Positions 21,694-63,767 of a stretch of DNA of 64,000 nt are shown piece after piece (position 1 is the stretch's first letter; every line of letters begins with the position of its first letter). Under the pieces are notes generated by a model, which made no database searches, had not been told where the DNA came from, and saw only the letters and a program-made list of their open reading frames with translations. A program made the position numbers and the translations under genes. Source of the stretch: a virus. Its lineage: Duplodnaviria; Caudoviricetes. The stretch spans positions 4,038 to 68,037 of IMG/VR virus record IMGVR_UViG_3300033121_001507. One strand, written 5' to 3'.

Positions 21694-21763
21694 GGCGATG
21701 GATTGTATCGTTCCGTTGCTTCACCTGCTGGCCTCTATTGATACTGGAGGTATGAAGTGGTGA
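21488..21763 (+). CDS. MazG-like all-alpha NTP pyrophosphohydrolase
   Basis: SRHEGIGVLEEELLELKEAI...EAMD acidic motif; AGGAG RBS. Confidence 0.7.
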   Translation: MTMPKLAKVSRTLRRKIIERAMNQWEKRCQEKGDQIYHSRHEGIGVLEEELLELKEAIRKKGTEEMEAEAMDCIVPLLHLLASIDTGGMKW

Positions 21764-24689: not shown

Positions 24690-24706
24690 CCCGGTTGTGC
24701 TATACT
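24678..24706 (+). promoter_or_regulatory. sigma70-like promoter for the kinase-AADT-hydroxymethylase unit
   Basis: TTTACA-N17-TATACT with a TG extension. Confidence 0.78.
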
Positions 24707-24722
24707 GTATGTAGGGGGATCA

Positions 24723-38667: not shown

Positions 38668-40482
38668 TTACCGAGGATAAGAGAAAGATACTCCCAACAC
38701 CTGAGCCGTTGCTGCAAGATTATCACTTGCATGGGCGCCATCCCGATAGATATCAATAGCCATGATATCTCCGCGAGCACAACCTGTTACGTCGAGGGTA
38801 ATAGTAGCCGACCGAACCACATTGGCGGAAGCATGAGCAGCAGAGGTCACAGTGGCAGCGGACCCAAATGCGGTGGTCATCAAGTCTCCTGTGGATGAAC
38901 AAGCGGTTTTAGCTTGCCAAACAGCAGATAGACCAGCATTTGAAACATTTGCTGTCCAATAGATGGTAGCCTTGAATGAAGTAGCCCAAGCACTCTGGTT
39001 AGCTGCCGAAGTCGTGTCAGGGATGAGAATGGTTGTTTGGATATGGTTAACTGAAGCATCCAGGAAAGCAGCCGCACACTTCTGTGATGTGCTGGATGCA
39101 ATCATTCCAAAAGTAGGAAGACCAGATCCAAACCCATTCCATTCCCATTGAAAACTTTGTCCACAGGTATTGTTGGCATACCCATAGGCCATCGGACGAT
39201 AATCAGTGATGGCTTGAACAGATGACTGAACGTAGTCGAGGCGCACCGCAGCATCCGATGAACAGGTAGTCGCCACGCCGCCCGTGCTTGTCACAGGAGA
39301 TCCACTGCATCCAGCCGTACTGGCTCCGATGTAGTAAGCCGAGGCGTGGGCCTTCGATGCACCCGTGGCGGAGCCGAAGTACGCGTCCGTCACGTCGGCG
39401 TTACCGATCACGGCGGTGTTGTCGCCCGCGCCACTCGTGTACGCCCCAATCACGATCTCGTTGGTCGAGGTCGAGTTCTTACTGCCGTTGTTGGCCCCAA
39501 TGAAAACGCTGTGCTCGCATCCGGTCAGGTACGTGGGATATCCAGAGGAGGTGGTCGTGGCGGACCACGCGCCGAACGCCGAGCACTCCGACCCCCCAGT
39601 GACGTCGCCCATCGAGTCGTCTCCGAAGGCGGCGTGGTAGTGGCCCCACTTGTTCTCGAACATCGACCACGCGCCGAAGGCCGAGTTTCCCATGCCGGTG
39701 CGGTTCTTGGTGAGAGCCGCTGCGCCTACGGCAGTACTTTCGTAACAGGTCACACAGTCTTCAAGCGCGCTCTGTCCGAATGCGCTGCTCCACCAGCCGT
39801 CGTAACTTTCACTCAAACGCCACTTCAGTGCGTGGAGTCCGACACCGATACTCTGGCCAGCGCCATTAGAGGCGATGCCGTGTGTACTCGCGGCATCGCC
39901 TCTAACTTCAATGGCGGTGCCAAGCGCCGTCACTCCTGCGAGCACGGGAGTCGTATTCGGGGACACCTTGTAGACGGACACCGCTTCGCACACGCCAGCG
40001 AAGGTGTTCGCCTCAGGGACGACCGCGAATGTGACCGCAGCCGTAGCTGCGGCTTCATAGATAAAACTGGCGAAGTACTGCAGCGAGCCGTACTGCGACG
40101 AGGCCCCAACGGGCCACAGCGAGCCGTTCAGCGTCACACCATCAGCCTTGACGAAGAACGCTCCTGCTGAAGGCTCGCAGTAGGTCCGCACAAGGATGAC
40201 GTCGCCGGAGGTGACGTTGATCGCCTGCGACAGCGTGCCGGTGGACCCGGCCGTCTTGGTCACGCGCCCGCTGCCCCATGCCCAGCCAGTGCCGAGTGTC
40301 CAGCCGTTTGCGTTGTCGAGAAAATCCCCGTTCGTGTCAAGGCGTGTCAGACTAGCAGAAGTCTGTGGAACACGAAATGGATTTGTGGCTGACCCTACTG
40401 GTGCTTTTGAGTTCTTGACCTGAGCAAAGCACTGAGCAGTGAACAGAAAGCTCAAGAGGAGAACAAGAACCACTTTTTTCAT
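38668..40482 (-). CDS. tail fibre/adhesin-like protein with an N-terminal signal peptide
   Basis: MKKVVLVLLLSFLFTAQCFA; carbohydrate-binding-like NGDF domain; YadA-like AVG/AFG repeats. Confidence 0.65.
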   Translation of the reverse strand: MKKVVLVLLLSFLFTAQCFAQVKNSKAPVGSATNPFRVPQTSASLTRLDTNGDFLDNANGWTLGTGWAWGSGRVTKTAGSTGTLSQAINVTSGDVILVRTYCEPSAGAFFVKADGVTLNGSLWPVGASSQYGSLQYFASFIYEAAATAAVTFAVVPEANTFAGVCEAVSVYKVSPNTTPVLAGVTALGTAIEVRGDAASTHGIASNGAGQSIGVGLHALKWRLSESYDGWWSSAFGQSALEDCVTCYESTAVGAAALTKNRTGMGNSAFGAWSMFENKWGHYHAAFGDDSMGDVTGGSECSAFGAWSATTTSSGYPTYLTGCEHSVFIGANNGSKNSTSTNEIVIGAYTSGAGDNTAVIGNADVTDAYFGSATGASKAHASAYYIGASTAGCSGSPVTSTGGVATTCSSDAAVRLDYVQSSVQAITDYRPMAYGYANNTCGQSFQWEWNGFGSGLPTFGMIASSTSQKCAAAFLDASVNHIQTTILIPDTTSAANQSAWATSFKATIYWTANVSNAGLSAVWQAKTACSSTGDLMTTAFGSAATVTSAAHASANVVRSATITLDVTGCARGDIMAIDIYRDGAHASDNLAATAQVLGVSFSYPR

Positions 40483-40862
40483 GAGGTCACCCACAGTCTA
40501 ACGATTCCAGCCGTGGAAATTCCAGCGTTTGCTACAACTACATCAATGGAAAACTCAGGGTCAAGGACCAGGGGAGGATCAAACGTAACAAGTCGAAGAT
40601 CCGTATTAGAGAGATCATCCCCAAGATTAGCATCGTCTACCGTGGTAAGTGCTACTCCCTCGGAGTCAACCAAGGATACATCGTATCCAAGGGAAGGAGA
40701 GTCATCTGCATCAGGAATAAACTTTACCTGTCGTAGAAAACCATAGATTGACTGAGGGTGTCCACTAACAGCACCAGAGGCATCGCTCGTCCAAGCAAAG
40801 TCATAGCGAGTAACACCTGGTAGAACCTCTTTCTTTGTGGTAAATACGACTGATCCAGGCAT
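40479..40862 (-). CDS. beta-rich virion accessory protein
   Basis: Position in the tail module; ATGA coupling. Confidence 0.6.
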   Translation of the reverse strand: MPGSVVFTTKKEVLPGVTRYDFAWTSDASGAVSGHPQSIYGFLRQVKFIPDADDSPSLGYDVSLVDSEGVALTTVDDANLGDDLSNTDLRLVTFDPPLVLDPEFSIDVVVANAGISTAGIVRLWVTS

Positions 40863-40869
40863 AGGTTCC

Positions 40870-41472
40870 TCAATTCTTTTTGCACACCAACAGTTGGATG
40901 TAAGGAGCATTTGTCCCTGCAACACTCCCAGAATTGTTGACAGTGGTGCCAACAGTGATGCCAGTGGTGGAACTTCCTGTTGTAGGAACTCCATCAACAA
41001 GATCGTAACTGCCTGTGGAAGAAGTAGCATCTCCGCTTGCTGAAACTCCTCCTGTGTGAGTGTGGCCTGGATCAGTGACAGTAGATGTAGCGGTGTGGTT
41101 GTGTTGACCAACAGCCCGGTTCTCTTGATCGGTAAGAGCAGTTCCAACAGAGGCACTCAGTGTGCCGCTTCCTGGCATCCCCACAAGATATCTGCCACGG
41201 GCCGCAGTGAGCTCAGTCCATCCTGTAGGGCAAGAAGACAACTGAAAGAAGGCAACCTGCCCGGTAGGGGCACTCGCTCCAGACAGAGTGTCCACTTGCT
41301 CTTTCAGATAGAGCATGTTGTCCCTGATATGGGTGTTGAGCATAGTAGCGGTAACTACTTCCTCCGCACCCCACGACTTCGGAGTAGTCCACGAGGTGGC
41401 GGAAAGAATAGCTACATACCCAAGCAGAATTCCGAACATTACCCCAAGAATAGATTTCACTGTGCTTCTCAT
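40870..41472 (-). CDS. tail collar-like fibre protein with N-terminal hydrophobic leader
   Basis: WTTPKSW anchor; GQVAFF..CPTGW..ARGRYLVG collar motif; T/G-rich repeats; PYIQLLVCKK. Confidence 0.75.
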   Translation of the reverse strand: MRSTVKSILGVMFGILLGYVAILSATSWTTPKSWGAEEVVTATMLNTHIRDNMLYLKEQVDTLSGASAPTGQVAFFQLSSCPTGWTELTAARGRYLVGMPGSGTLSASVGTALTDQENRAVGQHNHTATSTVTDPGHTHTGGVSASGDATSSTGSYDLVDGVPTTGSSTTGITVGTTVNNSGSVAGTNAPYIQLLVCKKN

Positions 41473-41479
41473 GTGGTCC

Positions 41480-44400
41480 TCACGCACCCAAGCGGGTATT
41501 CACACCGAGTTTGGACTTATTCAGAATCCACTTCTCCGAGGGAGTAGGAGCCAGCCACAAGGTAACGAAGAAGATTCGTCCTTCTCCAAACTCCCACTTG
41601 ATCCCATTGACAAAGCACACCTGATCGATTCCAGTTACAGTCTCTTGAACATACACTGTATCACCAATGTCGAGCAAGAGAACTTGACCAATCAAGTCGG
41701 TGGTTTGTGACGCAAAGAAGCTTACTGTTTCCACCAATAGATGTTCAGAGAGGTATTGAGTTGCTAGAGTATTGGCAGTTCCCTGAGCAACCGAGGGATC
41801 ATCCTGGAACGGCATCCTGATTTCGGTCGATCGGCGACCCGTCCCAGTCACCGCCTGAACTTTAACCTCGGCGAGTGTGTAGATTCCGTCTCCGCGAACC
41901 TCACACTTCGTTCTGTAAGCCGACAGAGTTCCGTGGTTATTGGTAAAGGTCAGGTAAACACAGTCAGCCCAAGCCTCCATGACTACTGAAACACTCGCAG
42001 ACAGATTCGTGCCAGAGCCATCTGCCGCGCTGTTGCAGGTATAGTCTGTTCCTGCAACAGGAGACACGACATTCATGGCAGCGATACGAGTATCTCGTTG
42101 TGCGGGATCAGTGTAATCAAGGATGATTGTCTCTGATGCTCCAGGAGCCAATGGTGTTGGAGGAACCGAAGATTCAATTGCAACTGCTCCAGCCATGGAC
42201 GCACGAGGAACAACATACCGTGGAGTGTAAGAGATGATGATTCTATCGAAAGTAACATCCTTCGTTGGGCGTGTTGTCGTTTTCGTTTTAGTGTCAGGAA
42301 GCGAAATGGATGCAGCAGGGGTAGTCTCCCTATGTGTTCTCGGTTCATAGGTCACTGTCTGCCCATCAGTTGCATCTCGCTTGGTATACTGATAACCAAA
42401 CGACGACAAGCAAAGATCCTGGAAGCCTGTTAGAAGATTACCTGACAAAGTATCCATGGCGTAAGGATATGTATCTGGCCCTACTCCAATGGATCTATTG
42501 ACAGGAGCAATGGTAGATGCATCCAACAAGGCTGTAGCGATTTCATCTTCCGTCTTGTTCAACTGAACAGCCACGTCGGGAGGGGCATATGCAAGAATGT
42601 TCTGATAATCGAGAACGGTACAGAACACTCGCTTCGCGTTGACCATTCCTGGTTCAGGAATTGCATCATCCAACCAACCCATCCAACGAGTAACTACACT
42701 TCCTTCAAAACCAGCCGAAAGACGAATTCGGATGTTCGAATTCCAACCAGGTCTAGTGTTTAGGTGATTCAAAGAATAGTAACCAACCAGACCACCACTG
42801 TTTCCCTCATCATTTCGCAAGGTAAAGGACAGAGTCCCTGATTCCGCAACACGCTGATCAATAGCAAGACCTCGAATTCCATACTCAAGGTTGATTGATC
42901 CCATGTATACGTCGGAGGTGATGTCAGTCCACCCACCCCCCACTCCATTCAACTCAGCTTCAATCCACTTATTAAAGGATATCTCGTAGGAATCCAAATA
43001 AATAGAGAGAAAGCTGTCCCCGCTAGATGAAAGAAGGGTTTCGGAGTCGGCTAAAGCTATTCCGGATGACAGAGTGTCAAGATCTGTTAGAGCTAACAGA
43101 GTCTCGGAGTCTGACACGGAAGTAACAAACGACCAACCAGATCCAGGCGTTGTTACACTTTGATTATTAGTGCTATAGTAGGCGAGCCATGTGTCGCTCG
43201 GTGTGGCTACACAATGTTGCACACTGAGGTAATTCGCAGCCACCGTCCCGCCGCCATCTTTCACGAAGGTATAGGTTGCAGTGGACGAACTATCCAGTGT
43301 AATCAGATTACCCGATGTGCCATTGACATCGAACGTTCCGAAGTGCGTCGTCGTGCCTGCTGTGAACTTGAACGTACGAGGACCGTTCGTCGCGTAGAAC
43401 CGGGTGAACGTGTTCGACCCTGTGATGGTCCATCCGCCGGTATCGCCAGACCCGGTGAACTCAACGTTGTTGTAAGTCTTGCCCCCACCAGCGAACGTTT
43501 TTGCGCTTGCCCCTCCGCCAGACAGTACGATTTTGCCGGTGTGTGCGGAGACGGTAGCCCCGGACGCGATATTGACCAGCGTGCCAGACGCGTTCGAGTT
43601 AGACAGCGTGCCACTACCAATGGACAGCGTCGCTCCGGTCGAAAAGTAAATTATGCCTGAACATGACAGGTCGAACCCGTTCAGGTCGAAACTAGCCGGG
43701 TTTGCGCTATCGCCGATCGATGTAATCGACGTACTGCACCCAAGCCGGAACGTGGTTCCGGTGCCGTGGCCGCGCAGACCCCAGTTTATGGATGCCGGAC
43801 TCGGGACTGTCCACACAAGCGTACCGCGTTTATCGGCGTACTGGCACACGCCGGTCCCTCCGAGCGTGCTCCCGCTCGGCATCGTGACGTTTCCATAGAA
43901 CGACTGGCCGATTCCTCCGTTCACGTTCGACAGCGTGAAAGCGTAGGACGAACCAGACCCGTCAATCGCGCAGATCTGCCGAGCGTACAGGGACACGGTC
44001 TTCCCGGTCCCCGTAAACGAATAGGCATTGAATACCGCAGTGTCGTGCGTGAGCGGAACCGACGCACCACTCCCAGTTCCATCACTGTTGGCCGTCCAAT
44101 GTGACGTATCGTACCAGCTTCCAGAATCACCGACCCAGTAACGGTTTTTCGGCGTACTCCACGACCACGACCCCGAGTTACCGGCTGCGTCTCCAATCTC
44201 CGTGCCCGACCATGTAGCCGCACCTGCGGCCGCGATGTCCGTGAAGTTCGCGTATGACAGGGCGACCGCGGCGGCCGTGATCGTCCGAGACGTGCCAGTG
44301 CCAGAACTGAACACGCGGAGACGGTACCGGTTCGACCCGGCGATCGTGAGCGTTCCACCAGTCAGAGAGAATGACGCTCCGATCTGAAGCGAGGCGTTGT

Positions 44401-50743: not shown

Positions 50744-51148
50744 TTACGGAGTGAACGTCGTTCCGCCCGTGGGACGAATCGTGACATCCGCAGTCAGTTC
50801 ACCATCCACGGGAGCCTTGGGAGCGAAGTTGGTGAGATAACCGGAGAACAGCCACGTTGCTCCGTCGGGGAACTGAAGGGTGTAGGCATCACGAGTGCCA
50901 TCGATGTAAGCCTTCAGGAGACCAGACACTTTTCCGTGGGTAGCTTCCCCAGAGAGAAGCATGTTGATGGTGAACGAGAGCTCACCCTTACGCCGAATGC
51001 CAATGACGTAACCATCGTCACTGTCATTCTGAGGCGTAACCTCGAAGGAGTTTCGTGTCAACGCCGGAGGCGTGATGTCACGAATTTCGCCAACTGCGGT
51101 TCCATTCCGCAGGACGAGTGTGCCGTGTGCTGAGATAGCGTTGCTCAT
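50744..51148 (-). CDS. major tail (tube) protein
   Basis: GEIRDITPPALTR, GELSFTIN, FPDGATWLFSGY, ADVTIRPTG. Confidence 0.88.
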   Translation of the reverse strand: MSNAISAHGTLVLRNGTAVGEIRDITPPALTRNSFEVTPQNDSDDGYVIGIRRKGELSFTINMLLSGEATHGKVSGLLKAYIDGTRDAYTLQFPDGATWLFSGYLTNFAPKAPVDGELTADVTIRPTGGTTFTP

Positions 51149-51156
51149 CAGAGCTC

Positions 51157-51561
51157 CTATGCTGAGCGAATGTTGCAGTGAATGTTGAACGCCACTTTAG
51201 GACGTCCAGTTTCGTCCGCTCCGAGGTCAAACGGTTCCTGGATGGGAACAATCCTCAGAAAATACACTCCGCTCAAAAGTGTATTGCGAACTTCAGAGAG
51301 AGCATTGTACGCATTTCTTGCCATCGTCATTGCCGCCAGATAAGTCTTTGCACGGCATACAACCTGAAATGTAGGATTTCGAATTCCAGGTCGCACGCCG
51401 TTGTGGGTGAACTGAGGAGCTGATCCCCCTGTGTCCAGGATTGACAAGTAAGGCCCATCTCCAGAAGGAAGAGTAACTTTCAACCCAATGAAGATAGACT
51501 GAGCTTGCACACCCACCGATTTTGACTCAAGGTAAGCTGCAACTGCTTCGGAGTCAAGCAT
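51157..51561 (-). CDS. tail terminator
   Basis: PTFQVVCRA, AYNAL, PFDLGADETGRPKVAFN; synteny. Confidence 0.75.
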   Translation of the reverse strand: MLDSEAVAAYLESKSVGVQAQSIFIGLKVTLPSGDGPYLSILDTGGSAPQFTHNGVRPGIRNPTFQVVCRAKTYLAAMTMARNAYNALSEVRNTLLSGVYFLRIVPIQEPFDLGADETGRPKVAFNIHCNIRSA

Positions 51562-51562
51562 G

Positions 51563-51940
51563 TCATCCTCCTGCGTTCACACGGCGGAGAATTCGCCGGA
51601 GCATGTAAGGCTTTGACTCATTCAAAACAGACTCCAAGAACTTAGCTTGCCCGTGAGGATGATGAACTTCGAGATTCTCATGGACATACACCGCATAGTC
51701 CACTTCCTCGTTCCCAAACGTAATCGCCACAGCAATCCGTTTAGGATTTCTATCAACCACCACAACACGGCCAGACTTTTTCAGAGCCTTCGTATCCCAA
51801 GGAGTGCGCTTCTTCGCTTCTCGAAGTTCGATTCTAGCTTCTGCGACAATTGCCTTGACAACTTCCTTTGGGCGAGTCTTCGCAACAGAACGAAGTCTAG
51901 CCGAAATAGAAGCGTCTGCAACAGTCCGCATAACCAGCAT
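51563..51940 (-). CDS. HK97 gp10-like neck protein
   Basis: TPWDTKALKKSG, YAVYVHE, GQAKFLE. Confidence 0.8.
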   Translation of the reverse strand: MLVMRTVADASISARLRSVAKTRPKEVVKAIVAEARIELREAKKRTPWDTKALKKSGRVVVVDRNPKRIAVAITFGNEEVDYAVYVHENLEVHHPHGQAKFLESVLNESKPYMLRRILRRVNAGG

Positions 51941-53079
51941 TACAGATCTCCAAGAACATCCAAATACCTACGACCGATGTTTCTCCAGTTGTAGGCTGGA
52001 GAGGACGCGCATTCCAAGGCTTTGTTTGCGTAGTTTTTCAGACAGTCGGGACGCTCATACGCAAAGTTCAAAAAGCGAATAGCTTGCTCTTTATTTGGAA
52101 GACCACCGATTGCATTGATTCCGTTAGGGGTGCAAGCAAAATGGTCACAATCCACAGAAAAAGCATGCTCAGAAAACAGATCTCCAAGAGCAGCCCACTT
52201 AGGAAGAATCTGAGGAACACCACAAGCCATTCCTTCCAGTGTCGTAAGACCAAACCCTTCCCCCTGAGTGGTAGTCATCATCACATCGAAAGCGTTATAC
52301 GTGTGGCGGAGATGCTCCTCGGGAGCACCACTTCCAAGAGGAGGAATACACTGGATGAGCCTCTTCTGAAGCCCATAATACTTCATCAGCTGAGGAATAT
52401 CACAGGACTCTTCCCCGGTTGGTGAAGCATGGAGATAGAGATAGGCGTCCCTCACAGGTGACGTAGACTTTACCCATTCGGCAAAATACATCACCATCAG
52501 ATCAAGGCGCTTTCTCGGCTGATTGCGATTGATGTTCCCTACAATGAACTTGTCGTGAAGTTTCTCTGGAAGCCCCAACATCTGACGTGCTGCGATTCTA
52601 TCCTCGGGGTAGTAGATACTACGATCCACTCCGAGAGGAATCACGGCTGCTGGTTTGGTGTATCCACCCTCTCGTGCTTCATTACGACCGAATTCTGTCC
52701 AGAAGATGGCCAGATCGAGCTCGTTAAGAGCCGTGCCCCGGCAGTTCTTACCATCAACAGCCACGATCCCCACAACCTTAGTATCGGTTCCACGAACAAC
52801 CTTGTTGAGATACTCAGGAAAGTTCCAGGGATCGTTCTGAATGACGATTACGTCGTATTCCTTGGATTTGGTGAAATCCGTAACACGGTTCACCCCAAAC
52901 AGATCTCCACCGGGCCAGCAAGGATAGATCTTGTAAGGATAATCATGTGGATCCCCTTGGTAGTTCAACCCAAGAACATCCACTTCGTAGTGCTTGTGAA
53001 GAGTATCAAGGATGTAATGGGTTGCACGAGCGAACCCACTTGATACTACTGCGTCTCCGATCCAAAGCATTTTCCTCAT
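51940..53079 (-). CDS. GT-B glycosyltransferase (GT4-like)
   Basis: SGFAR, NRNQPRKR, EGFGLTTLEGMACGVP. Confidence 0.9.
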   Translation of the reverse strand: MRKMLWIGDAVVSSGFARATHYILDTLHKHYEVDVLGLNYQGDPHDYPYKIYPCWPGGDLFGVNRVTDFTKSKEYDVIVIQNDPWNFPEYLNKVVRGTDTKVVGIVAVDGKNCRGTALNELDLAIFWTEFGRNEAREGGYTKPAAVIPLGVDRSIYYPEDRIAARQMLGLPEKLHDKFIVGNINRNQPRKRLDLMVMYFAEWVKSTSPVRDAYLYLHASPTGEESCDIPQLMKYYGLQKRLIQCIPPLGSGAPEEHLRHTYNAFDVMMTTTQGEGFGLTTLEGMACGVPQILPKWAALGDLFSEHAFSVDCDHFACTPNGINAIGGLPNKEQAIRFLNFAYERPDCLKNYANKALECASSPAYNWRNIGRRYLDVLGDL

Positions 53080-53088
53080 ACAGGCTCC

Positions 53089-53772
53089 TTATGGATGGTA
53101 TACACGCTGGTGGGAATCAAGCCACAGCGAGAAACCATGTTCTCTGATGCTTTTTCCAAGCCCCCTTACACAGTCCAATGGACCGAAACGAGCAACACGG
53201 GCCACCCGATTGCTCATGACAATGCAAGAACCGGCCGAATCAAGAGTAACAAACCTTTCACCGTTCAGAGCAGGGTGATAAGGCCGGTATGGATCAAACT
53301 GAACACCGTCTTTAACGTGACCCCAGATGTCATAGAAACGATTGCTTGGTGTCATGCTCATTGGAGCTACAGCATCCAAGCCACGTTCCAGAACATCTTC
53401 GAGAAGCTCAATCATCGTAGCAGCAGACCAAACGAGATCCGACTCTACGTAGATGAAAGCATCTTCGTCTGTCACCTGAGTAATTGTACCGTTAGAGCAC
53501 CAAGACAGAGCTTTCCATCGCTCAGGGACATCTACACTCCCCCAAGCAGGACCACCATGCTGTCTCTTGATGAGTTTGCCATCGAAGTCTCCGTCGATGA
53601 AATACTTAGCAAGAGAATTCCAGGTGTTGTCCGAGCTATCCCCTTCTACGAGGTAGAGGGAAAGCCCAATGCCTTTAGGATCGAAAACACTCCTCATCTC
53701 CTCAATCTGCGTGAAATACCGATCGAGGTAGGACGTAGAGTTTCTAAAGATGCTTCCAACAGCGATTCTCAT
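53089..53772 (-). CDS. GT-A glycosyltransferase
   Basis: VGSIFRN, EGDSSDNT, YVESDLVW, SAGSCIVM. Confidence 0.75.
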   Translation of the reverse strand: MRIAVGSIFRNSTSYLDRYFTQIEEMRSVFDPKGIGLSLYLVEGDSSDNTWNSLAKYFIDGDFDGKLIKRQHGGPAWGSVDVPERWKALSWCSNGTITQVTDEDAFIYVESDLVWSAATMIELLEDVLERGLDAVAPMSMTPSNRFYDIWGHVKDGVQFDPYRPYHPALNGERFVTLDSAGSCIVMSNRVARVARFGPLDCVRGLGKSIREHGFSLWLDSHQRVYHP

Positions 53773-54437
53773 TCGAACAACCTTGTCCAAATGACATAGG
53801 CTTCAAATGCGTTATAGAAGCTCATCGAAGACCTACCTGCTTTATAACTGATAGGAACTTCTTTGATCCTCAAGCCACGGTCTGCCGCAATCTTCAGAAT
53901 TTCGATCTGACGAGCATGCATCTTTGCTCTGTAATCGACACATGCGATATCCTGCAAAGCTTGTCGAGTATAGCATCGATACCCGCTTGTCCAATCGGTT
54001 CCAATGTGCCCAATCAAAGCACAGTTACAGAGATGAGCAGCCCATCTGCTGAGGGTCTTTCTCCAGGGTCTTCCCTCGTAGACTGATTCAGGAAGGAATC
54101 GGCTACCCACTACGAGGTCGGTAGTATCATCCATAGCATCAAGAATCGTTTTAAGATCCCTGACAGAATGAGACCCGCCAGCGTCAAGAGTAACCACTCT
54201 ATCAGCTCCCGAATCAAGAGCGAAACCCCAAGCAATAACCTGTCCGAGAGCGATACTGGCAATTCCAACATCGTAAGCTTCAGCTCCTGCTTCCTTAGCC
54301 TTGTAAAGAGTGTCATCGGAGCTACGTGCATCCGTTACTACGACCTTCTGGACAAGCCCAGAGTTCAACAGGTCTTTGACCAAACTGCCGATTGAAGATT
54401 CTTCATTACGAGTAGTAATGCAAGCCACGGTCTTCAT
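53769..54437 (-). CDS. GT2 glycosyltransferase (polyprenol-phosphate glycosyl synthase-like)
   Basis: TRNEESSI, DARSSDDT, LDAGGSH, LVVGSRF, DWTSGYRCY, EVPISY. Confidence 0.85.
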   Translation of the reverse strand: MKTVACITTRNEESSIGSLVKDLLNSGLVQKVVVTDARSSDDTLYKAKEAGAEAYDVGIASIALGQVIAWGFALDSGADRVVTLDAGGSHSVRDLKTILDAMDDTTDLVVGSRFLPESVYEGRPWRKTLSRWAAHLCNCALIGHIGTDWTSGYRCYTRQALQDIACVDYRAKMHARQIEILKIAADRGLRIKEVPISYKAGRSSMSFYNAFEAYVIWTRLFE

Positions 54438-54832
54438 CGGATGAACCACCCAAGGTTAACGGCGTAGTAGTAAGGATGATCCGTTGTCGGGTCACCCAAT
54501 CCATCAACACTCAAGATCGGACCAGTTGTGCCATCGGGAAGAACGAGTTTATCCCTTGTATCCAAAGGCTCAATTCTACCCGCCGCCCCATTTTCCTCGA
54601 ACGGTTCCAAAAAATAGATGATCGCTCTCACGAGCTGAAGTTGCCCACTACCACTTGGAAACTGCTTGGTCTTATACTCGACGATCGCTTTCCGTGTGAC
54701 AGCGGTCCCATAGGTCATCGCGCCTTCTACATCCGAGGAAACCCAAGGATAGTGAACAACATCACACTGAGCAGACTGTGTGAGTTTGTTCGCTACCTTT
54801 AGGCCCGTTTGGATGAGCTTAGCGATGTTCAT
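54434..54832 (-). CDS. head closure protein
   Basis: Synteny after the adaptor; beta-rich. Confidence 0.65.
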   Translation of the reverse strand: MNIAKLIQTGLKVANKLTQSAQCDVVHYPWVSSDVEGAMTYGTAVTRKAIVEYKTKQFPSGSGQLQLVRAIIYFLEPFEENGAAGRIEPLDTRDKLVLPDGTTGPILSVDGLGDPTTDHPYYYAVNLGWFIR

Positions 54833-55338
54833 TAGAATGCCTTGAATGGGATCACGGTTGAACTCTTAGCAATCCACGACTCAGGAAGAAGATCAATCAC
54901 TGCATCAGGAAGTGCCTTTCTAACCACAGCTTCCTTGAATTTCAGCTCAACCGGCCCTGCTTTCAACTGAGTCAGCCCATTGGCTTCAACATCGTTGTCA
55001 AGGGACCGATCTTCCGTAAGAAGCTGCCTAGCAAACTCCGCAGTCGCATCTTTAAGCGCCTGTGGAATAATAGTGCTAGAAATTCCATAACCGTTTCGGG
55101 TCAACATCCCTGAACGCGGCCACGCCAATGCTTGAGTCTCTCCAGAAGCTGCTCCCGTCCAAGTCACGAGAGAGTCAAGCAATCGCGTCGCCATGACCAG
55201 AGCACGCTCCTTATCCCCGTCACTAACTGTCCATGCATCGGCGTGAAGACGAGCTTCGTGGTAAGCATCAGCTTCCGCACGAGTCGCATAGCTATTAGCG
55301 TCCGAAGCACCGGCAGTTGCGACGAGGATAAGGGCCAT
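54832..55338 (-). CDS. head-tail adaptor (DnaT-like family)
   Basis: ANSYAT..EADAY, ALVMATRLLD, QALAWPR, LKAGPVELKF. Confidence 0.8.
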   Translation of the reverse strand: MALILVATAGASDANSYATRAEADAYHEARLHADAWTVSDGDKERALVMATRLLDSLVTWTGAASGETQALAWPRSGMLTRNGYGISSTIIPQALKDATAEFARQLLTEDRSLDNDVEANGLTQLKAGPVELKFKEAVVRKALPDAVIDLLPESWIAKSSTVIPFKAF

Positions 55339-55670: not shown

Positions 55671-56681
55671 TTACGACATGTGAACGAGTCCCGAACGACC
55701 ATCCACGTCCGACCGAATCAGCGGAACCTGAATCGTGAAGGACTTGAAGTTGATACGGAACCCGCCCATCACATCCCACTGGATGTTCTGGAGAGCTTCA
55801 CCAGTCACCCACTGAACGACGTCGGGAGTGGGCTGGATGAGGAGCATCTGGTCAGAGGTCATCTGATCCGCAACCGTGATGCGTTCGAGACCATCGATCT
55901 GCATCAGACGCTCACGAATCGTCATGTCACCAGTGGACTTGTAGTCTTCCGACAGCTTCGTCGAGAAGTTGGTCGGGACATACAGCCAATAGGGACCATA
56001 CATACGATCCGCTTCGGCCATCGCCATCATCGACAGAACGTCGTCGAGGCAGTTCGCGCCGGTCTTCGCAGCAGCCGACCACGCACCGTTCGTCCCGAAC
56101 GAGTCGAGATTACGGTGAGGGTGGGTGAGGTAGCCGTAGATCGGAAGACCACCAAAGGTCTTCGAGCCGGAGAACAGAATCTGTTCCAGCAGTTCAGCGA
56201 TCTTACGACCAGCAACTTCGACCTGGAGCGTATCCAGAGCCTGACCCTTCTCACGGGAAGCAGCCAGATGCCGCAGGTTCAGGAAGAAGTCCTTGAACAC
56301 GATGGGCAGCGGGAGCTGCGCCAGATCGTATTCGAGTCGATCGTTCTCCGTCGAGCCGAGGCCGTCGAGAGAGATCGACGCATCACCCATGTCGGTGATC
56401 TTGTCGTATTCCAGAACGGTCTTAGCCAGACCGTTGGAAATCGTCCTGGTCAGACCCGCCGCAATCAGGTCACGAACACCACGAAGGCGCTTCGCCGCAG
56501 CCTGGACGAGCACGTTGTCGAACTCGATCCATTCTTCCTTGCGAAGCGTATCCAGAGTGCGAAGAACAGCCGGAGAGATCTTCTGACCCGACTGAAGCGC
56601 ACGGAGAAGCTGTTCACCGGCCCACTTCCCCGAGCTTCCGCCGAAGAAGTTTTTGCCAGTTGCCACCTGAACGTCATTCAT
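55671..56681 (-). CDS. major capsid protein (HK97 fold)
   Basis: Synteny; DFFLNLRHL, IYGYLTHP, YGPYWLYVP. Confidence 0.85.
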   Translation of the reverse strand: MNDVQVATGKNFFGGSSGKWAGEQLLRALQSGQKISPAVLRTLDTLRKEEWIEFDNVLVQAAAKRLRGVRDLIAAGLTRTISNGLAKTVLEYDKITDMGDASISLDGLGSTENDRLEYDLAQLPLPIVFKDFFLNLRHLAASREKGQALDTLQVEVAGRKIAELLEQILFSGSKTFGGLPIYGYLTHPHRNLDSFGTNGAWSAAAKTGANCLDDVLSMMAMAEADRMYGPYWLYVPTNFSTKLSEDYKSTGDMTIRERLMQIDGLERITVADQMTSDQMLLIQPTPDVVQWVTGEALQNIQWDVMGGFRINFKSFTIQVPLIRSDVDGRSGLVHMS

Positions 56682-58617: not shown

Positions 58618-60038
58618 ACCCCATCCTTCTCACGTTTGAACCCAGGATCGTCTTTTGAGTTCACTTTGGGGTTTTTATTCTGATTTTTCTGGTTTTTGGG
58701 GTCCGTTGGATCCCCATTGGAGTCCGCATTGTCTCCGTTTTGGTCCGCATTTGGGTCAATTACGAACTCGCGCATCTTCTCAACGAGCTCTTTTTCCCTC
58801 TTATACTGCTCCTCGGACAGGACATCCAGCCCGAGAACCACCGTCCGAATCTCGTCGGAGGTGACCACAATGCGACCCATAACGGAGTTCAACCGACTCC
58901 ATTTCTCTGCGATTTCGGCCTTTTTCGCCGCTGGCAGGTTCAAAATCTGCGGCCACACGCACCTATAGTCCTTGGGCTGCGGCAGCACGCCAATTTCGAT
59001 CATTCTGTCAACGAAAACGCGAACTACATAGGGTTCGGCCCACTCCGTGCGGCGTGTTTCGACTCGCTCATCCCAGTTGTTTTTGTCCTGAGATGACCCC
59101 AATTCGCCCCGTTCGCTGCCCAACAGGATCCGTTTTGGGATACCCGTGGTCGAACTAATGAGCGAAATTACCGCATCAGCGGGTCCGCTGAAGTTCGCAA
59201 CATCCGAACCGAGAGAGTTTACCGTCGTTCCCTGCGTCCGAAGCACCCGACGAAGGCCGTGTTCGTATTCTTCGACCTCTTTCTCGAAAGCTTCTTCATC
59301 CTCGGTGCCAAGCTCGATTTCTTTGTCGATATCGACCTGGATTCCCTGATCGGCTCGCTTCCAGAACGCTTCGGCTCCACCACCTACCACCTTGACGAGA
59401 TCATCGAGGTTGTTCCACACGCCCTTGAGTCGTGGGGTTCCTCGGAGATCATCATCCAAGATGTCATCGGCTACGTGAATCACGCGAGAATAATGAACCT
59501 TTACCGTCCGGTTCCTATCCAACCGCGCCACGTTGTAGTAGAGGGGAAGCCCGTATCGTTCGGAAGTCGTGTCGTAGTCGATATCACCGATGGACGCTTC
59601 GCTCTCTCCTCGGATTGTGAGGAAACGAATATCGTCCATCGTGGCGTTCTTCAGAGGTGATTCAGGTGCTCCAGGCCCACCAATGATGATTACGCTGTAA
59701 TCTCCCACACCAGCGAGGATATCAGCTCGGCTGAAGGTCGCCCAAACATTGAGTTTCTTGTTGAGCTCCATCCACGCTTCTTCGAACTTGGTCACTACGA
59801 GCGGATTTGGATCCTCGATGATGTCTCCACCGCCCCTCCAAGTCGCCTTGGGCAGTGCTCGAACGATAGCGGACGCCATGCCATCGCGTTCTGCACGAAC
59901 ACGATAGTCCGCGGCCGTCAGATGTTTCTTGTAACCGAGGGCCTGATAGAAATCGCGTCGTCCGCCGAATGTCAACCCGAGTTTTTCACTCAGGTCGATA
60001 CGTTTGGCAAGCACCGACATCAGGGACCGGAAGTTCAT
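58614..60038 (-). CDS. portal protein (DUF1073-like)
   Basis: Follows the terminase; YGLPLYY, VHYSRVIH, GIPKRILLG. Confidence 0.88.
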   Translation of the reverse strand: MNFRSLMSVLAKRIDLSEKLGLTFGGRRDFYQALGYKKHLTAADYRVRAERDGMASAIVRALPKATWRGGGDIIEDPNPLVVTKFEEAWMELNKKLNVWATFSRADILAGVGDYSVIIIGGPGAPESPLKNATMDDIRFLTIRGESEASIGDIDYDTTSERYGLPLYYNVARLDRNRTVKVHYSRVIHVADDILDDDLRGTPRLKGVWNNLDDLVKVVGGGAEAFWKRADQGIQVDIDKEIELGTEDEEAFEKEVEEYEHGLRRVLRTQGTTVNSLGSDVANFSGPADAVISLISSTTGIPKRILLGSERGELGSSQDKNNWDERVETRRTEWAEPYVVRVFVDRMIEIGVLPQPKDYRCVWPQILNLPAAKKAEIAEKWSRLNSVMGRIVVTSDEIRTVVLGLDVLSEEQYKREKELVEKMREFVIDPNADQNGDNADSNGDPTDPKNQKNQNKNPKVNSKDDPGFKREKDGV

Positions 60039-61582
60039 GCAGCGACCCTCCTGTTACGGAACCTACTGCCCCAGGTCGCGCGACGGAATTTGGGTTTGGG
60101 CTTCTGTGCGAAGGACAACATGAGTGAATCCGCCCTATTAGGGGACGGCACGCCACGTTTCTTCGCTTCTTCTTTGGATTCGATTTGGATCTTGCCTGTA
60201 CTGGTTCGCTTGAAGCGAATACTGGCAAGCTCGGCCGCTAGTTCGTCGTCGTTTTCGTCGATGTCGATGTTTCCTGACTCGAATAACTCGCGCACCATCC
60301 ACCACAATTCGGCGCGTCGATTGACGAACTTCTCAGTATCCTCGGCACCGGCACCAACATTGATGCCAAAGAACGGCAACTTCTGTTCCTGTGCACGATG
60401 CACCACGCCAGCCCCAATACCGATGACGTCCACTTTCACGGCTTCGGTTTGATGCTGTCTATGGAACCCGATCGCACGACCACATGTGGCCATCGTATCA
60501 GGATTGCGATCCGACCCAACGATGCGAACTCGGCGTCCCTTGCGATGCGCGTGCGTGCTGCTATCGCCACCACCACCGACGTCCACCCCGAGCTCCGACG
60601 GCCCCTCGTCATCATCGAAGCATGCTCGCTGAGCACGCTTGATCCACGGCATGGGAATCAACCCACCGCCGTCGGGTAGCTCAGGAAACTCGCCGAGGAT
60701 TTTGCTCTTCCAGAGCGGATTGACGTCGATGCCCGTGGCTCCCTCGGGAGGCACCACCCGACGACCCTGCTCGACGTCGCATTCATTACCCGATCGGTCG
60801 ACCCACCTCCACGACGGAGCCCATTTCTTCCGTTTCTCTTCGACATACACTTTGCCGATGAGATTGTGGGCCACGTAAGGAGGGCATTCCTCCCCTGTGA
60901 AGTTCGGTGTGTCGAACGCACTGATGCTGTGAACCGTCCACCCCGTCCCGGGAAAACTTGCCTCGTAATACTCTCCGGTTGGGTCATCGGGGTTGCTGAT
61001 CATCAGCGCCTTGCCGAAGTCGTTGGCAATGAGTGAGTCAGCAGCTTCATGGAGGAGGCCGCGGATCCCGTTGGCCTCGTCGAAGATATAGAGAACCCGC
61101 TTCGCGTGAATCCCCTGAAACGCCGTGGGATCATACTCATCGGGTTTACGACCAAATGCTACAAGTTCTTCATTTCCCTGAGGAGTGACCATGAACCATT
61201 CGGTTTGGTTCACGCGCCCCCGGAGCTTCCCTCGGGCATGAACACGTCCAATCTCACGCCACAGGATGGCTCGAACCTGAGCTCCCGATGGTGCGGACGT
61301 TACGACGAATGCTTCCCCGACCGGCCAGATGTCAAGCCACCAAGCGGCGATTTCTGCGGCGATGAACGACTTGCCGATTTCGTGGCAAGACATGACCAGA
61401 GTCTTGCGGTTGTCTCGCACCGACTCCATGATCTCCACCTGTTTGGACCAGAGGTGATCACCGAGTCGTTCTTTTGCCCAAAGACGAGGATCCGCGCGAT
61501 AGCGACGACGACGCATCTCTGCCTCGATGGCAGATAGCTCCTGTGTCGCGCGAACTGTGATTTCCTCAATCTCGGGAAGCAT
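60035..61582 (-). CDS. terL: terminase large subunit
   Basis: Walker A-like SCHEIGKS, Walker B IFDEA, ISNP, nuclease GVDVG and NRADS. Confidence 0.92.
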   Translation of the reverse strand: MLPEIEEITVRATQELSAIEAEMRRRRYRADPRLWAKERLGDHLWSKQVEIMESVRDNRKTLVMSCHEIGKSFIAAEIAAWWLDIWPVGEAFVVTSAPSGAQVRAILWREIGRVHARGKLRGRVNQTEWFMVTPQGNEELVAFGRKPDEYDPTAFQGIHAKRVLYIFDEANGIRGLLHEAADSLIANDFGKALMISNPDDPTGEYYEASFPGTGWTVHSISAFDTPNFTGEECPPYVAHNLIGKVYVEEKRKKWAPSWRWVDRSGNECDVEQGRRVVPPEGATGIDVNPLWKSKILGEFPELPDGGGLIPMPWIKRAQRACFDDDEGPSELGVDVGGGGDSSTHAHRKGRRVRIVGSDRNPDTMATCGRAIGFHRQHQTEAVKVDVIGIGAGVVHRAQEQKLPFFGINVGAGAEDTEKFVNRRAELWWMVRELFESGNIDIDENDDELAAELASIRFKRTSTGKIQIESKEEAKKRGVPSPNRADSLMLSFAQKPKPKFRRATWGSRFRNRRVAA

Positions 61583-61599
61583 AGTTCAATTCCACCATC

Positions 61600-61628
61600 A
61601 GTATACACTATTTTCATTTCCTTGTCAA
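61600..61628 (-). promoter_or_regulatory. near-consensus sigma70 promoter for the morphogenesis operon
   Basis: TTGACA-N17-TATACT. Confidence 0.85.
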
Positions 61629-63120: not shown

Positions 63121-63319
63121 GGTGTTCCGTCGGGTGGATATACGACCGCTCGCCGGAGTATAGAATGATAAAACGATAATGGTGTGCTCGCCACGGGCCG
63201 CTTCACTCAACGATCATGGCAAAAAACGATAATCGGTTGGTGGGATAATCGTTTAATCGTTTTATCCTATAATCAACGACTCAAACGAGAAATGAGGATA
63301 GATATGAGTGTAGATTTAC

Positions 63320-63348
63320 GTTACAGGACCGCAAAGGTGTAGTAGTAT
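63320..63348 (+). promoter_or_regulatory. sigma70-like promoter
   Basis: GTTACA-N17-TAGTAT; near copy of the 7505 promoter and leader. Confidence 0.6.
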
Positions 63349-63384
63349 GTACGTAGCGCAAAGGGGCGCAAGGAGGCAGAGCAA

Positions 63385-63651
63385 ATGCGTAAACTGTGGT
63401 TCGCTCTCAAGGACACCAAGGATTACCTCGCCTATCGGCTTCGCTACGGCCGCGAGGAATTCCGCTACGAGCACATCTACCTCGGTGCTTCGTGGTTCGG
63501 GTTCGTGGTCAACACGGTCTTGGAGGCCTACCGCGTGTTCGTCTGCTCCTACTTCGGACACAAGCTCCGCGAAGAGAACGCCGACGCCGAAAACGGGTGC
63601 AGTGACATCTACTGCTCGCGCTGCGGTTATTCCGACACCATCTGGTTCTAG
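63385..63651 (+). CDS. hypothetical protein
   Basis: AAGGAGG RBS; CSRC; GHKL. Confidence 0.7.
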   Translation: MRKLWFALKDTKDYLAYRLRYGREEFRYEHIYLGASWFGFVVNTVLEAYRVFVCSYFGHKLREENADAENGCSDIYCSRCGYSDTIWF

Positions 63652-63659
63652 GAGGGCAC

Positions 63660-63767
63660 ATGAGCTTCGGCGACATCGTGTTGGTGCTCGGCGTCGTGGT
63701 CGCAATCTGTGGCGTCATGGAGGTGGTGGACAAGGTCGTGGGGTTCCTGTTCCGGGTCGCTGAGTAG
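63660..63767 (+). CDS. small single-TM peptide
   Basis: AGGAGG RBS; MSFGDIVLVLGVVVAICGVMEVVDK. Confidence 0.55.
   Translation: MSFGDIVLVLGVVVAICGVMEVVDKVVGFLFRVAE

What the first reader, a model, noticed from the sequence alone, without database searches (positions are those of the whole stretch)
51940..54437. Three glycosyltransferases inside the head-tail connector genes: candidate virion glycosylation system
Seen: GT2, GT-A and GT4 genes sit between head closure and the gp10-like neck gene, co-oriented and tightly coupled (ATGA/TAATG overlaps at three of the four junctions), so they should be late-expressed. Established: some mycobacteriophages glycosylate capsid and tail tube proteins using phage glycosyltransferase sets. 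Inference: these enzymes build an oligosaccharide on virion proteins, and the S/T-rich tail proteins are plausible acceptors. No GtrA-like flippase or multi-TM transferase is seen, which argues against O-antigen conversion.
Basis: partly seen in the sequence, partly recalled or inferred. Interest (0 to 1): 0.75.

Follow-up and report, generated by a model that had tools for sequence, protein, structure and literature searches.

The report
Phage sugar-transferase trio among neck genes
An uncultured 68-kb tailed phage has three soluble sugar-adding enzymes wedged between its head-closing and neck genes; one of them sits there in every relative checked, so the phage probably sugar-coats its own particle, though this is unproven.

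Summary
Three co-oriented glycosyltransferase genes lie between the head-closure-position gene and the Neck1 gene: GT2 at 53769-54437, an unassigned GT-A at 53089-53772, and GT4 at 51940-53079. Overlaps are ATGA, ATGA and TAATG, plus one 9-nt gap with AAGGAG.

I tested DNA as the target.
- The GT4 is present in all 23 distinct related loci that cover the Hc–Neck1 interval.
- It is present in all 14 near-complete relatives, and 9 of those have no detectable hydroxymethyl-pyrimidine or DNA-GT gene.
- The GT2 and GT-A recur, usually with a GT4, beside virion genes in unrelated phages of 35-69% GC, none with ThyS or the kinase.
- In relatives the island grows to 7.8 kb, adding aminotransferase, acetyltransferase, radical-SAM and methyltransferase genes.

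Virion-protein glycosylation is therefore the best reading (about 0.55), analogous but not orthologous to Corndog gp35-38. It is unproven, and the acceptor is unknown. The GT2 resembles polyprenyl-phosphate sugar synthases, which keeps a host-envelope reading alive.

This scan has noted the same GT4 family in three other genomes, and similar cassettes in many more.

The parts
53769..54437 (-). GTa: 222-aa soluble GT2 (DPM1/GtrB/GpgS-like catalytic domain, DAGGSH motif, no TM helix)
   Evidence: PF00535 at 3.5e-7, above cut-off; phrog_841. PDB: DPMS 5mlz at 2e-6. AF2 pLDDT 92.6; Foldseek hits GpgS, DPMS, ArnC and GtrB at TMq 0.7-0.79. Close homologs are all 215-240 aa. ATGA overlap with the upstream gene.
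53089..53772 (-). GTb: 227-aa GT-A-fold glycosyltransferase of an unnamed family (EGDSxD and ESD motifs invariant)
   Evidence: No Pfam, PHROG, NCBIfam or PDB sequence hit. Alignment A2 invariants. AF2 pLDDT 96. Foldseek: COLGALT1 TMq 0.76, mimivirus R699, LH3, Mnn9; giant-virus GTs in BFVD at TMq up to 0.84. No relative in 50,697 deposited phage records.
51940..53079 (-). GTc: 379-aa GT4 (GT-B, retaining type) with invariant EX7E. Core gene of the lineage.
   Evidence: PF13692, PF00534 and PF20706 above cut-off; phrog_2170 at 2e-36. Full-length match to chlorovirus B736L (3oy2) at 2.7e-13. E274, E282, R185, K190 and R191 invariant in 24 sequences. Present in 23 of 23 distinct relatives covering the interval.
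54434..54832 (-). 132-aa gene in the head-closure (Hc1) position; upstream boundary of the island
   Evidence: No HMM hit. Homologs sit after Ad1 in relatives. Weak structural lead to PF10665 Minor_capsid_1, TM 0.61-0.68.
54832..55338 (-). Head-tail adaptor Ad1
   Evidence: phrog_477 at 3.4e-35; PF20557 at 2e-31.
51563..51940 (-). Neck1 / tail-completion (HK97 gp10-like) gene; downstream boundary, TAATG overlap with GTc
   Evidence: phrog_5 at 1.4e-7; junction read.
51157..51561 (-). Tail terminator
   Evidence: PF12691 at 9.6e-15.
50744..51148 (-). Tail tube protein. Candidate acceptor: conserved R-P-S/T-G just before a short variable C-terminal tail.
   Evidence: PF16461 at 6.5e-11; phrog_158. 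Alignment A1 and C-terminal listing. The acceptor role is inference only.
55671..56681 (-). Major capsid protein. Candidate acceptor: conserved R/N-S-G 6-9 residues from the C-terminus.
   Evidence: DUF6260, Linocin_M18, phrog_771 and phrog_264. C-terminal listing. The acceptor role is inference only.
61600..61628 (-). Promoter-like site (TTGACA-17-TATACT, 11/12) upstream of the large terminase; probable start of the late operon that contains the island
   Evidence: No terminator-like site on the minus strand inside 51940-54437.

Best explanation
The three genes form a late-expressed, cytoplasmic glycosylation cassette that puts a short glycan on one or more virion proteins during assembly.

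Shown:
- Three intact, soluble glycosyltransferases with conserved catalytic motifs are translationally coupled to the connector genes.
- The GT4 (GTc) is a core gene of this siphovirus lineage and always lies inside the connector/tail block.
- The accessory part of the island varies from nothing to about 6.5 kb of extra GTs and sugar-tailoring enzymes.
- The GTa-GTb pair, usually with a GTc-like GT4, recurs as a cassette beside head, neck and tail genes in unrelated phages.

Inferred:
- GTc, the conserved enzyme, recognises a conserved phage acceptor and adds the first sugar from a host NDP-sugar. Its nearest solved relative binds GDP-mannose.
- GTa and GTb extend or branch the glycan.
- Likely acceptors are the exposed C-terminal ends of the capsid and tail-tube subunits, as in mycobacteriophages, or the fibres.
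- The coat would protect or mask the particle or alter its adhesion. Its variability between relatives suggests diversifying selection, as at O-antigen loci.
For: 1. Anatomy: ATGA/ATGA/TAATG coupling inside the late operon, with no internal terminator-like site.
2. GTc lies between Hc132 and Neck1 in 23 of 23 distinct related loci that cover the interval, which ranges from 1.29 kb (GTc alone) to 7.8 kb. In one sub-lineage it moved but stayed between tail terminator and tail tube.
3. EX7E and the phosphate-binding R/K residues are invariant in 24 GTc sequences. The ExD and GD motifs are invariant in 16 GTb sequences.
4. Relatives add DegT aminotransferase, hexapeptide acetyltransferase, radical-SAM/B12 enzymes, methyltransferases and more GTs at the same spot. 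That is a glycan-building island.
5. Decoupling from DNA modification. Of 14 relatives at least 90% complete, all with GTc, only 3 have ThyS plus the 5-hmdU kinase, 3 have TAGT (one has both), and 9 have none of ThyS, kinase, TAGT, Tet_JBP or a p272-like gene. The same island type (DegT + Hexapep + GTb + GT-B + GTc) occurs in genomes with three different DNA-modification states.
6. GTa homologs occur in 37 viral loci of 35-69% GC: 12 are adjacent to GTb and most have a GTc-like GT4. Recognisable neighbours are Neck1 x6, major head x5, adaptors x5, protease x4 and tail terminator x2, with no replication genes among the 25 families listed. Example L210: GT4-GTa-GTb-Neck1-terminator. None of 13 such records has ThyS or the kinase.
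7. Cultured phages with the GTc family also place it in the structural block: phiPsal1 (capsid-GT4-GT2-neck), Mae-JY09 (capsid-GT4-adaptor), S-CBS4 (portal-GT4-GalT-MTase-protease).
8. Precedent: Corndog gp35-38 lie between portal and protease (PMC4351075). They are reported to glycosylate capsid and tail tube (Freeman 2023, as summarised in PMC11600133 and PMC12363180).
9. The DNA operon has its own TAGT-like GT at 23275-24093.
Against: - No direct evidence of any glycosylated protein, and the acceptor is unknown.
- GTa's nearest families make polyprenyl-phosphate sugars (DPMS, ArnC, GtrB, AglJ, PpgS) or glycosylate phosphoglycerate. That does not fit direct protein glycosylation well.
- GTc has cellular homologs at 36-43% identity in Verrucomicrobia polysaccharide-type loci, so the family does not specify a protein acceptor.
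- No detectable orthology to the proven mycobacteriophage enzymes.
- No poly-Ser/Thr C-terminal tails on the capsid or tube proteins.
- Synteny within one lineage is inherited, so it is not 23 independent observations.
- The Tet_JBP search had a silent control, so a divergent dioxygenase could have been missed.
- The B736L function is itself unknown (PMC9614988).
Confidence: 0.55

Rival explanations
1. Host-envelope remodelling. GTa makes a polyprenyl-phosphate sugar, and GTb/GTc act on lipid-linked or wall-polymer precursors at the inner face of the membrane. Host flippases and transferases then display an altered surface glycan, for example to stop progeny re-adsorbing to debris or to exclude other phages.
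For: GTa's best sequence and fold matches include DPMS, ArnC, GtrB, AglJ and PpgS. Short TM-less synthases of this type exist. GTc has cellular homologs in polysaccharide-type loci. The lineage includes prophage-like copies on Mb-sized Acidobacteriota contigs. Cytoplasmic prophage GTs that alter wall polymers need no phage flippase; TarP is cited in the Pyle et al. preprint.
Against: The genes sit inside the late morphogenesis operon with translational coupling, not as a moron with its own promoter. A late operon is silent in a lysogen and is active only shortly before lysis. There is no GtrA, GtrC or other multi-TM partner. All NCBIfam scores are far below the equivalog cut-offs (59 against 325 bits). 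Soluble GpgS matches GTa equally well. Across unrelated phages the cassette keeps its place beside virion genes.
Confidence: 0.17
2. DNA glycan extension. The TAGT-like enzyme of the hypermodification operon puts a first sugar on 5-hmdU, and the three late GTs lengthen it before packaging.
For: The phage has the 5-hmdU kinase, a ThyS-like gene and a TAGT-like GT. Phage GT-A and GT-B enzymes build mono- to trisaccharides on DNA, and some such clusters lie near structural genes (Pyle et al. preprint).
Against: GTc, GTb and GTa all occur in complete genomes with no ThyS, kinase, TAGT or Tet_JBP. They lie about 26 kb from the modification operon and on the opposite strand. None resembles TAGT.
Confidence: 0.06
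3. Other soluble acceptor. The enzymes glycosylate a small molecule or a host or defence factor, such as a nucleotide signal or a metabolite, as a late counter-defence or metabolic takeover function. Their position among structural genes would then only provide timing.
For: GTc passes the Pfam 'GT4 in conflict systems' model (29.2 against 26 bits). GTa's fold equals that of GpgS, a small-molecule GT. PHROG files these families under 'moron, auxiliary metabolic gene and host takeover'.
Against: No PADLOC match. The PF20706 hit covers only the generic C-terminal Rossmann domain. A hypervariable island of sugar-tailoring enzymes fits a displayed glycan better than a single small-molecule product. 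The position beside neck, tube and capsid genes is kept even after relocation.
Confidence: 0.12

Closest known systems
Cluster O mycobacteriophage Corndog gp35-38 (O-methyltransferase plus three GTs); Che8 gp108-110 (virion glycosylation, Freeman et al. 2023)
   Same: A phage-encoded set of about three soluble GTs, with a methyltransferase in Corndog and in relatives of this phage. The set is embedded in the virion structural operon, is not itself a virion component, and has hypothesised or proven targets on capsid and tail tube (PMC4351075, PMC11600133, PMC12363180).
   Different: No detectable orthology: hhalign and BLASTP found nothing beyond a 37-column ExD-motif match between GTb and gp37. 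The position differs (head closure to Neck1, not portal to protease). The host phylum is probably different (Acidobacteriota-linked). A GT4 is the conserved core here, whereas small GT-A enzymes (gp38/gp110) are the essential ones there. No biochemical proof exists here.
Chlorovirus NY-2A B736L / PBCV-1 A546L (PDB 3OY2/3OY7), and the autonomous capsid glycosylation of giant viruses
   Same: Closest solved relative of GTc over its full length (E 2.7e-13). It is a virus-encoded cytoplasmic GT-B enzyme in a virus that glycosylates its own capsid protein. GTb's nearest viral folds are also giant-virus GTs.
   Different: The acceptor and the real donor of B736L are unknown, and the NY-2A capsid glycan lacks mannose (PMC9614988). 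It comes from a eukaryotic virus, and the similarity is remote.
GT4-containing cassettes in the structural modules of Pontimonas phage phiPsal1, Microcystis phage Mae-JY09 and Synechococcus phage S-CBS4
   Same: Same GT4 family (PHROG 2170; 26-32% identity), placed between capsid or portal and connector genes, with a second GT and/or a methyltransferase.
   Different: These are annotated only as glycosyltransferases and have no functional study. They lack the GTb family.
Gtr-type O-antigen conversion (GtrA/GtrB/GtrC) of temperate enterobacterial phages
   Same: The GTa catalytic domain matches the GtrB-like PHROG 841 (2.5e-8) and the GtrB fold.
   Different: No TM helices in GTa, and no GtrA flippase or GtrC. 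The genes lie in the late operon and not beside the attachment site.
Phage DNA sugar hypermodification (T4 alpha/beta-GT; TAGT/JGT-type; 5hmC glycan BGCs of Pyle et al.)
   Same: Phage GT-A and GT-B enzymes acting in series. This phage does carry such a pathway elsewhere, with a TAGT-like gene at 23275-24093.
   Different: The three island GTs are found in genomes without any hydroxymethyl-pyrimidine pathway, and they lie apart from the modification operon.

Membership tests
CAZy/Pfam GT2 (GTa) | Match to Glycos_transf_2 above the curated cut-off | tested here: met
   PF00535: 30.8 bits against a 23.3 cut-off.
CAZy/Pfam GT2 (GTa) | GT-A fold with a conserved acidic metal/nucleotide motif | tested here: met
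   AF2 pLDDT 92.6; Foldseek TMq 0.7-0.79 to DPMS, GpgS and ArnC. D36, D41 and D85 (DAGGSH) are invariant or nearly so in 24 sequences.
Polyprenyl-phosphate glycosyltransferases (GtrB/DPMS/ArnC/AglJ/PpgS) | Score above the equivalog cut-off, or presence of the interface/TM helices that bind the lipid | tested here: not met
   Best NCBIfam score is 59 bits against a 325 cut-off. GTa is 222 aa with no hydrophobic segment. All close homologs are 215-240 aa. Activity on a lipid phosphate cannot be excluded.
CAZy/Pfam GT4 (GTc) | Glycos_transf_1-type C-terminal domain above cut-off, and the EX7E motif | tested here: met
   PF13692: 31.4 against 27. PF00534: 26.4 against 26.4. E274 and E282 are invariant. 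Full-length alignment to the GT-B structure 3oy2.
GT-A superfamily (GTb); no named family | GT-A Rossmann-like fold with a DxD-type motif | tested here: met
   pLDDT 96; Foldseek E 3e-11 and TMq 0.76 to COLGALT1. E110-x-D112 and G44-D45 are invariant. No Pfam or NCBIfam family matches. One homolog gives a sub-threshold CAP59_mtransfer hit.
Mycobacteriophage-type virion glycosylation system | Phage GT set encoded within or next to the virion structural operon | tested here: met
Mycobacteriophage-type virion glycosylation system | Homology to the proven enzymes (Corndog gp36-38 / Che8 gp110) | tested here: not met
   hhalign and BLASTP found no significant similarity, only a 37-column ExD region at probability 76%. 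Che8 was not compared.
Mycobacteriophage-type virion glycosylation system | Glycans covalently attached to capsid and tail-tube subunits | not testable with these tools
   Needs virions or recombinant proteins plus glycan staining and mass spectrometry.
Mycobacteriophage-type virion glycosylation system | Recognisable C-terminal acceptor region on capsid and tube proteins | tested here: inconclusive
   No Ser/Thr-rich tails. There is only a conserved R-P-S/T-G (tube) and R/N-S-G (capsid) near the C-termini.
Gtr-type O-antigen conversion | GtrA flippase and a GtrC-type multi-TM transferase accompanying GtrB | tested here: not met
   No such ORF in the window. The only small 3-segment ORF (63316-63705) has no GtrA match.
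Phage DNA sugar hypermodification | Co-occurrence with a hydroxymethyl-pyrimidine-producing enzyme (ThyS-type or 5mYOX/TET) | tested here: not met
   9 of 14 near-complete GTc-bearing relatives and 13 of 13 GTa-bearing records lack ThyS and the kinase. TAGT, Tet_JBP and p272 were searched only among the GTc-bearing relatives, and the same 9 lack those too. The Tet_JBP control was silent.

The most novel reading that the evidence does not exclude
Self-glycosylation of the virion is an obligatory, ancestral trait of a large lineage of soil and freshwater siphoviruses, some integrated in Acidobacteriota. A GT4 acts as a core morphogenetic gene, and a hypervariable glycan island beside it behaves like a phage counterpart of an O-antigen locus. 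The GT4/GT2/GT-A trio is a mobile virion-glycan cassette exchanged among phages of hosts with 35-69% GC. If so, sugar coats on phage particles would be common in nature and under diversifying selection for reasons unrelated to animal antibodies, such as masking capsid or tail proteins from bacterial sensors, resisting proteases, or tuning adhesion to host glycans and soil matrices.
Probability: 0.35. Interest if true: 0.8.

Novelty: new variant of a known kind. Interest (0 to 1): 0.5.

Why it matters
Glycosylated phage particles have been shown experimentally only for a few actinobacteriophages. In this case a glycosyltransferase is a fixed part of the head-tail gene block in every relative examined, and an adjacent island of sugar-building genes changes from phage to phage. 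The same enzyme trio also turns up beside virion genes in unrelated phages. If confirmed, virion glycosylation would be a widespread and evolving property of environmental phages. That would bear on how phages are recognised by hosts and defences, on particle stability, and on engineering of phage surfaces. The case also shows that a phage can carry two separate sugar-transfer systems, one for its DNA and one probably for its particle, which need to be told apart when annotating phage glycosyltransferases.

Tried and rejected
- DNA as the target. This looked serious once the 5-hmdU kinase, ThyS and TAGT-like genes were found. I rejected it as the general function because of decoupling across complete genomes. 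TAGT turned up in two relatives without ThyS (G001, G005), so 'no DNA pathway' holds for 9 of the 14 near-complete genomes, not 11.
- Orthology with Corndog gp36-38: none found.
- GtrA-like flippase: the only candidate ORF (63316-63705) has no family match.
- Defence or anti-defence families: no PADLOC hit.
- Poly-Ser/Thr acceptor tails, a lead from earlier scan notes on Firmicutes phages: absent here.
- A pattern scan of viral contigs with GTb alone found nothing. Its relatives were recovered only through neighbouring genes.
- A megablast of the module against deposited phages found nothing.
A profile scan of viral contigs replaced it.
- The primary paper on virion glycosylation (PMC10527164) is not held. 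I used it only through papers that summarise it.
- Fold similarity of GTb to protein-modifying GTs (COLGALT1, LH3, ppGalNAcT), and of GTc and GTb to giant-virus GTs, is treated as a lead. It is not evidence for a protein acceptor.


Full report
**What is there.** The window is 64 kb of a 68,037-bp IMG/VR virus record that is linear and 87% complete by CheckV. A minus-strand late block runs in this order: large terminase (60035-61582), portal, a PHROG-760 protein, a 150-aa protein, major capsid protein (55671-56681), an 86-aa protein, Ad1 adaptor (54832-55338), a 132-aa gene in the head-closure position (54434-54832), three glycosyltransferases, Neck1/tail completion (51563-51940), tail terminator, tail tube, chaperones and a 1552-aa tape measure.
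- ATGA overlap at 54437-54434.
- ATGA overlap at 53772-53769.
- A 9-nt spacer with AAGGAG before the ATG at 53079.
- TAATG overlap at 51940.

A strong promoter-like site (TTGACA-17-TATACT) lies just upstream of the terminase. No terminator-like hairpin on the coding strand falls inside the island. Late co-expression is therefore plausible but inferred.

**The three enzymes.**
- GTa (222 aa) passes Pfam GT2 and matches the GtrB-like PHROG. Its model (pLDDT 92.6) superposes equally well on soluble glucosyl-3-phosphoglycerate synthases and on the catalytic domains of DPMS, ArnC and GtrB. NCBIfam gives only sub-threshold hits to AglJ, PpgS and dolichyl-phosphate hexose transferase. It has no hydrophobic segment, and all its close homologs are 215-240 aa.
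- GTb (227 aa) matches no curated family and no deposited phage. With 15 homologs it folds at pLDDT 96 into a GT-A domain with invariant EGDSxD and ExD motifs. Its nearest solved folds are collagen galactosyltransferase COLGALT1, mimivirus R699, LH3 and Mnn9. Its nearest viral folds are giant-virus GTs.
- GTc (379 aa) is a GT4 with invariant EX7E and R/K residues. Its best solved relative over its full length is chlorovirus B736L, whose acceptor is unknown (PMC9614988).

The plus-strand early region holds a 5-hmdU DNA kinase (25745-26647, 1.6e-39), a thymidylate-synthase homolog (26634-27662), a HAD phosphatase and a weak amino-acid:DNA-transferase hit. I checked this: the 272-aa product of 23275-24093 falls with TET-associated glycosyltransferase (TAGT) clusters in the ESM Atlas (score 0.98, 217/256 features). 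DNA glycosylation in this phage is thus real enough to be a serious alternative target. Published work shows that serial phage GTs can build oligosaccharides on DNA.

**Comparative test within the lineage.** Scans with GTc and with a tail-tube profile returned about 100 related viral loci. Mapping the window's proteins onto them gave these results:
- Every locus that covers the region upstream of Neck1 carries GTc.
- Among 23 distinct loci that span Hc132 to Neck1, 23 have it. The interval ranges from 1.29 kb (GTc alone) to 7.8 kb.
- In one sub-lineage GTc sits between the tail terminator and the tail tube instead.
- The extra genes are glycan-building genes: DegT aminotransferase, hexapeptide acetyltransferase, radical-SAM/SPASM and B12-radical-SAM enzymes, SAM methyltransferases, GT2s, a second GT-B and a GT4 fusion.

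**Whole-record searches for DNA-modification genes.** Of 14 relatives at least 90% complete, all with GTc:
- Three have ThyS plus the kinase.
- Three have TAGT; one of these has both.
- Nine have none of ThyS, kinase, TAGT, Tet_JBP or a p272-like gene.

The same island type (DegT + acetyltransferase + GTb + GT-B + GTc) occurs in a genome with TAGT only, in one with nothing, and in one with ThyS plus kinase. The Tet_JBP search had a silent control, so that single negative is weak.

**The trio beyond the lineage.** GTa has only two homologs inside the lineage (L090/L201 and L195, both with GTb and GTc). A profile scan found 37 viral loci of 35-69% GC. Local HMMs show GTb directly after GTa in 12 of them and a GTc-like GT4 in most. 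A PHROG census of the three ORFs on each side (144 ORFs) lists glycosyltransferases, methyltransferases, an epimerase and an aminotransferase. The remaining recognisable neighbours are virion genes: Neck1 x6, major head x5, adaptors x5, protease x4, terminator x2 and fibre x2. No replication function appears among the 25 families listed. In L210 (37% GC) the order is GT4-GTa-GTb-Neck1-tail terminator. None of 13 such records, four of them complete, has ThyS or the kinase. Cultured phages with the GTc family repeat the pattern: phiPsal1, Mae-JY09 and S-CBS4 keep it within the capsid-to-neck or portal-to-protease block. TJE1 has it just upstream of the small terminase with sugar-nucleotide genes. 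S-EIVl has it near a primase.

**Interpretation.** The association with virion morphogenesis genes is old and was kept through relocations. It also recurs in unrelated phages, and it is independent of DNA modification. The only experimentally studied analogue is the O-methyltransferase plus three GTs between portal and protease in Corndog. That set was detected in infected cells but not in virions (PMC4351075), and it is reported to glycosylate capsid and tail tube (Freeman 2023, via PMC11600133 and PMC12363180). I therefore rate virion-protein glycosylation at about 0.55. GTc, being universal, is the natural candidate for the step that recognises the conserved phage acceptor, and the variable genes would tailor the glycan. 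This is inference.

**What remains open.**
- The enzymes are not orthologs of the Corndog ones, so this is the same kind of system built from other parts.
- No acceptor can be named. Capsid and tube proteins lack Ser/Thr-rich tails and show only a conserved R-P-S/T-G (tube) and R/N-S-G (capsid) a few residues from their C-termini. The fibres' Ser/Thr richness is unremarkable.
- GTa's kinship with polyprenyl-phosphate sugar synthases keeps a host-envelope reading alive (0.17). So does the existence of cellular GTc homologs in Verrucomicrobia next to a pyruvyl transferase and another GT4.
- The absence of GtrA/GtrC excludes only the Gtr mechanism.

**Host.** Copies of the whole module with GTc next to Neck1 lie on Mb-sized contigs of Acidobacteriota MAGs, three of them in one Vicinamibacterales MAG. 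The lineage therefore probably infects Acidobacteriota and includes temperate members. The window's own host is not established.

**Novelty.** This scan has already noted the same GT4 family in three other genomes and several hundred GT cassettes in phage structural modules. The theme is recurrent, and this window is one more case. What this case adds:
- The demonstration that the GT4 is a core gene of a large lineage.
- The recurrence of GT2/GT-A/GT4 as a cassette.
- The explicit exclusion of the DNA target in a phage that also modifies its DNA.

I class it as a new variant of a known kind, of moderate interest.

**Limits.**
- The primary Freeman paper is not held.
- Not every ORF of the window was scanned against Pfam, so 'no sugar-nucleotide synthesis gene in this phage' holds only for the roughly 50 ORFs tested.

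Noticed in passing
window 21757-28191 (+): Thymidine-hypermodification operon: HAD phosphatase, weak amino-acid:DNA-transferase hit, a 272-aa TAGT/base-J-type glycosyltransferase (23275-24093), an HD-like protein, a P-loop protein, the 5-hmdU DNA kinase helical domain and a ThyS homolog. It is a separate sugar-transfer system from the island studied here.
   Followed up: partly
L036, L043, L051-L064, L069-L075 (e.g. L056:9971-10402); L045 and L072 carry two paralogs: In many relatives the tail-tube gene (59-65% identical to the window's) is not after the tail terminator. It lies between the PHROG-760 gene and the decoration/capsid genes, or between Ad1 and the head-closure gene. The terminator is then followed directly by the chaperone genes. 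This is an unusual displacement of a normally fixed gene.
   Followed up: partly
G001 (L007 record) 9731-10333 and G005 (L019 record) 65256-65888: Two relatives without ThyS or the 5-hmdU kinase carry strong TAGT matches (1e-40, 3e-44). This suggests a different DNA-glycosylation route whose hydroxylating enzyme was not detected.
   Followed up: no
L111, L112, L113 (one Vicinamibacterales MAG; contigs of 1.0-1.8 Mb); L114, L115: Three near-identical copies of the structural module sit in one Acidobacteriota genome, and further copies sit in two others. These are probably prophages of this lineage and the best host clue.
   Followed up: partly
L019:11202-13445 and L019:5896-7512; L065: Island variants with a 747-aa protein whose C-terminal part is a GT4, a B12-binding radical-SAM enzyme, a class I methyltransferase and a 409-aa GT2. 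This predicts C-methylated or otherwise unusual sugars.
   Followed up: no
window 63316-63705 (-): A 129-aa ORF with three hydrophobic segments and no family match. Whether it is a real gene is uncertain, because other ORFs overlap it.
   Followed up: partly
L133:6894-12196 (Prosthecobacter fluviatilis): Cellular homologs of GTc (36-40% identity) are common in Verrucomicrobia. Here one sits beside another GT4, a Ser/Thr kinase and a polysaccharide pyruvyl transferase, so the phage enzyme probably derives from cellular glycan synthesis genes.
   Followed up: partly
window 38668-40494 and 40870-41487 (-): Two tail-region proteins begin with a hydrophobic segment, as an earlier scan note said (signal-peptide-like). 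This would matter if any glycosylation happened outside the cytoplasm.
   Followed up: no
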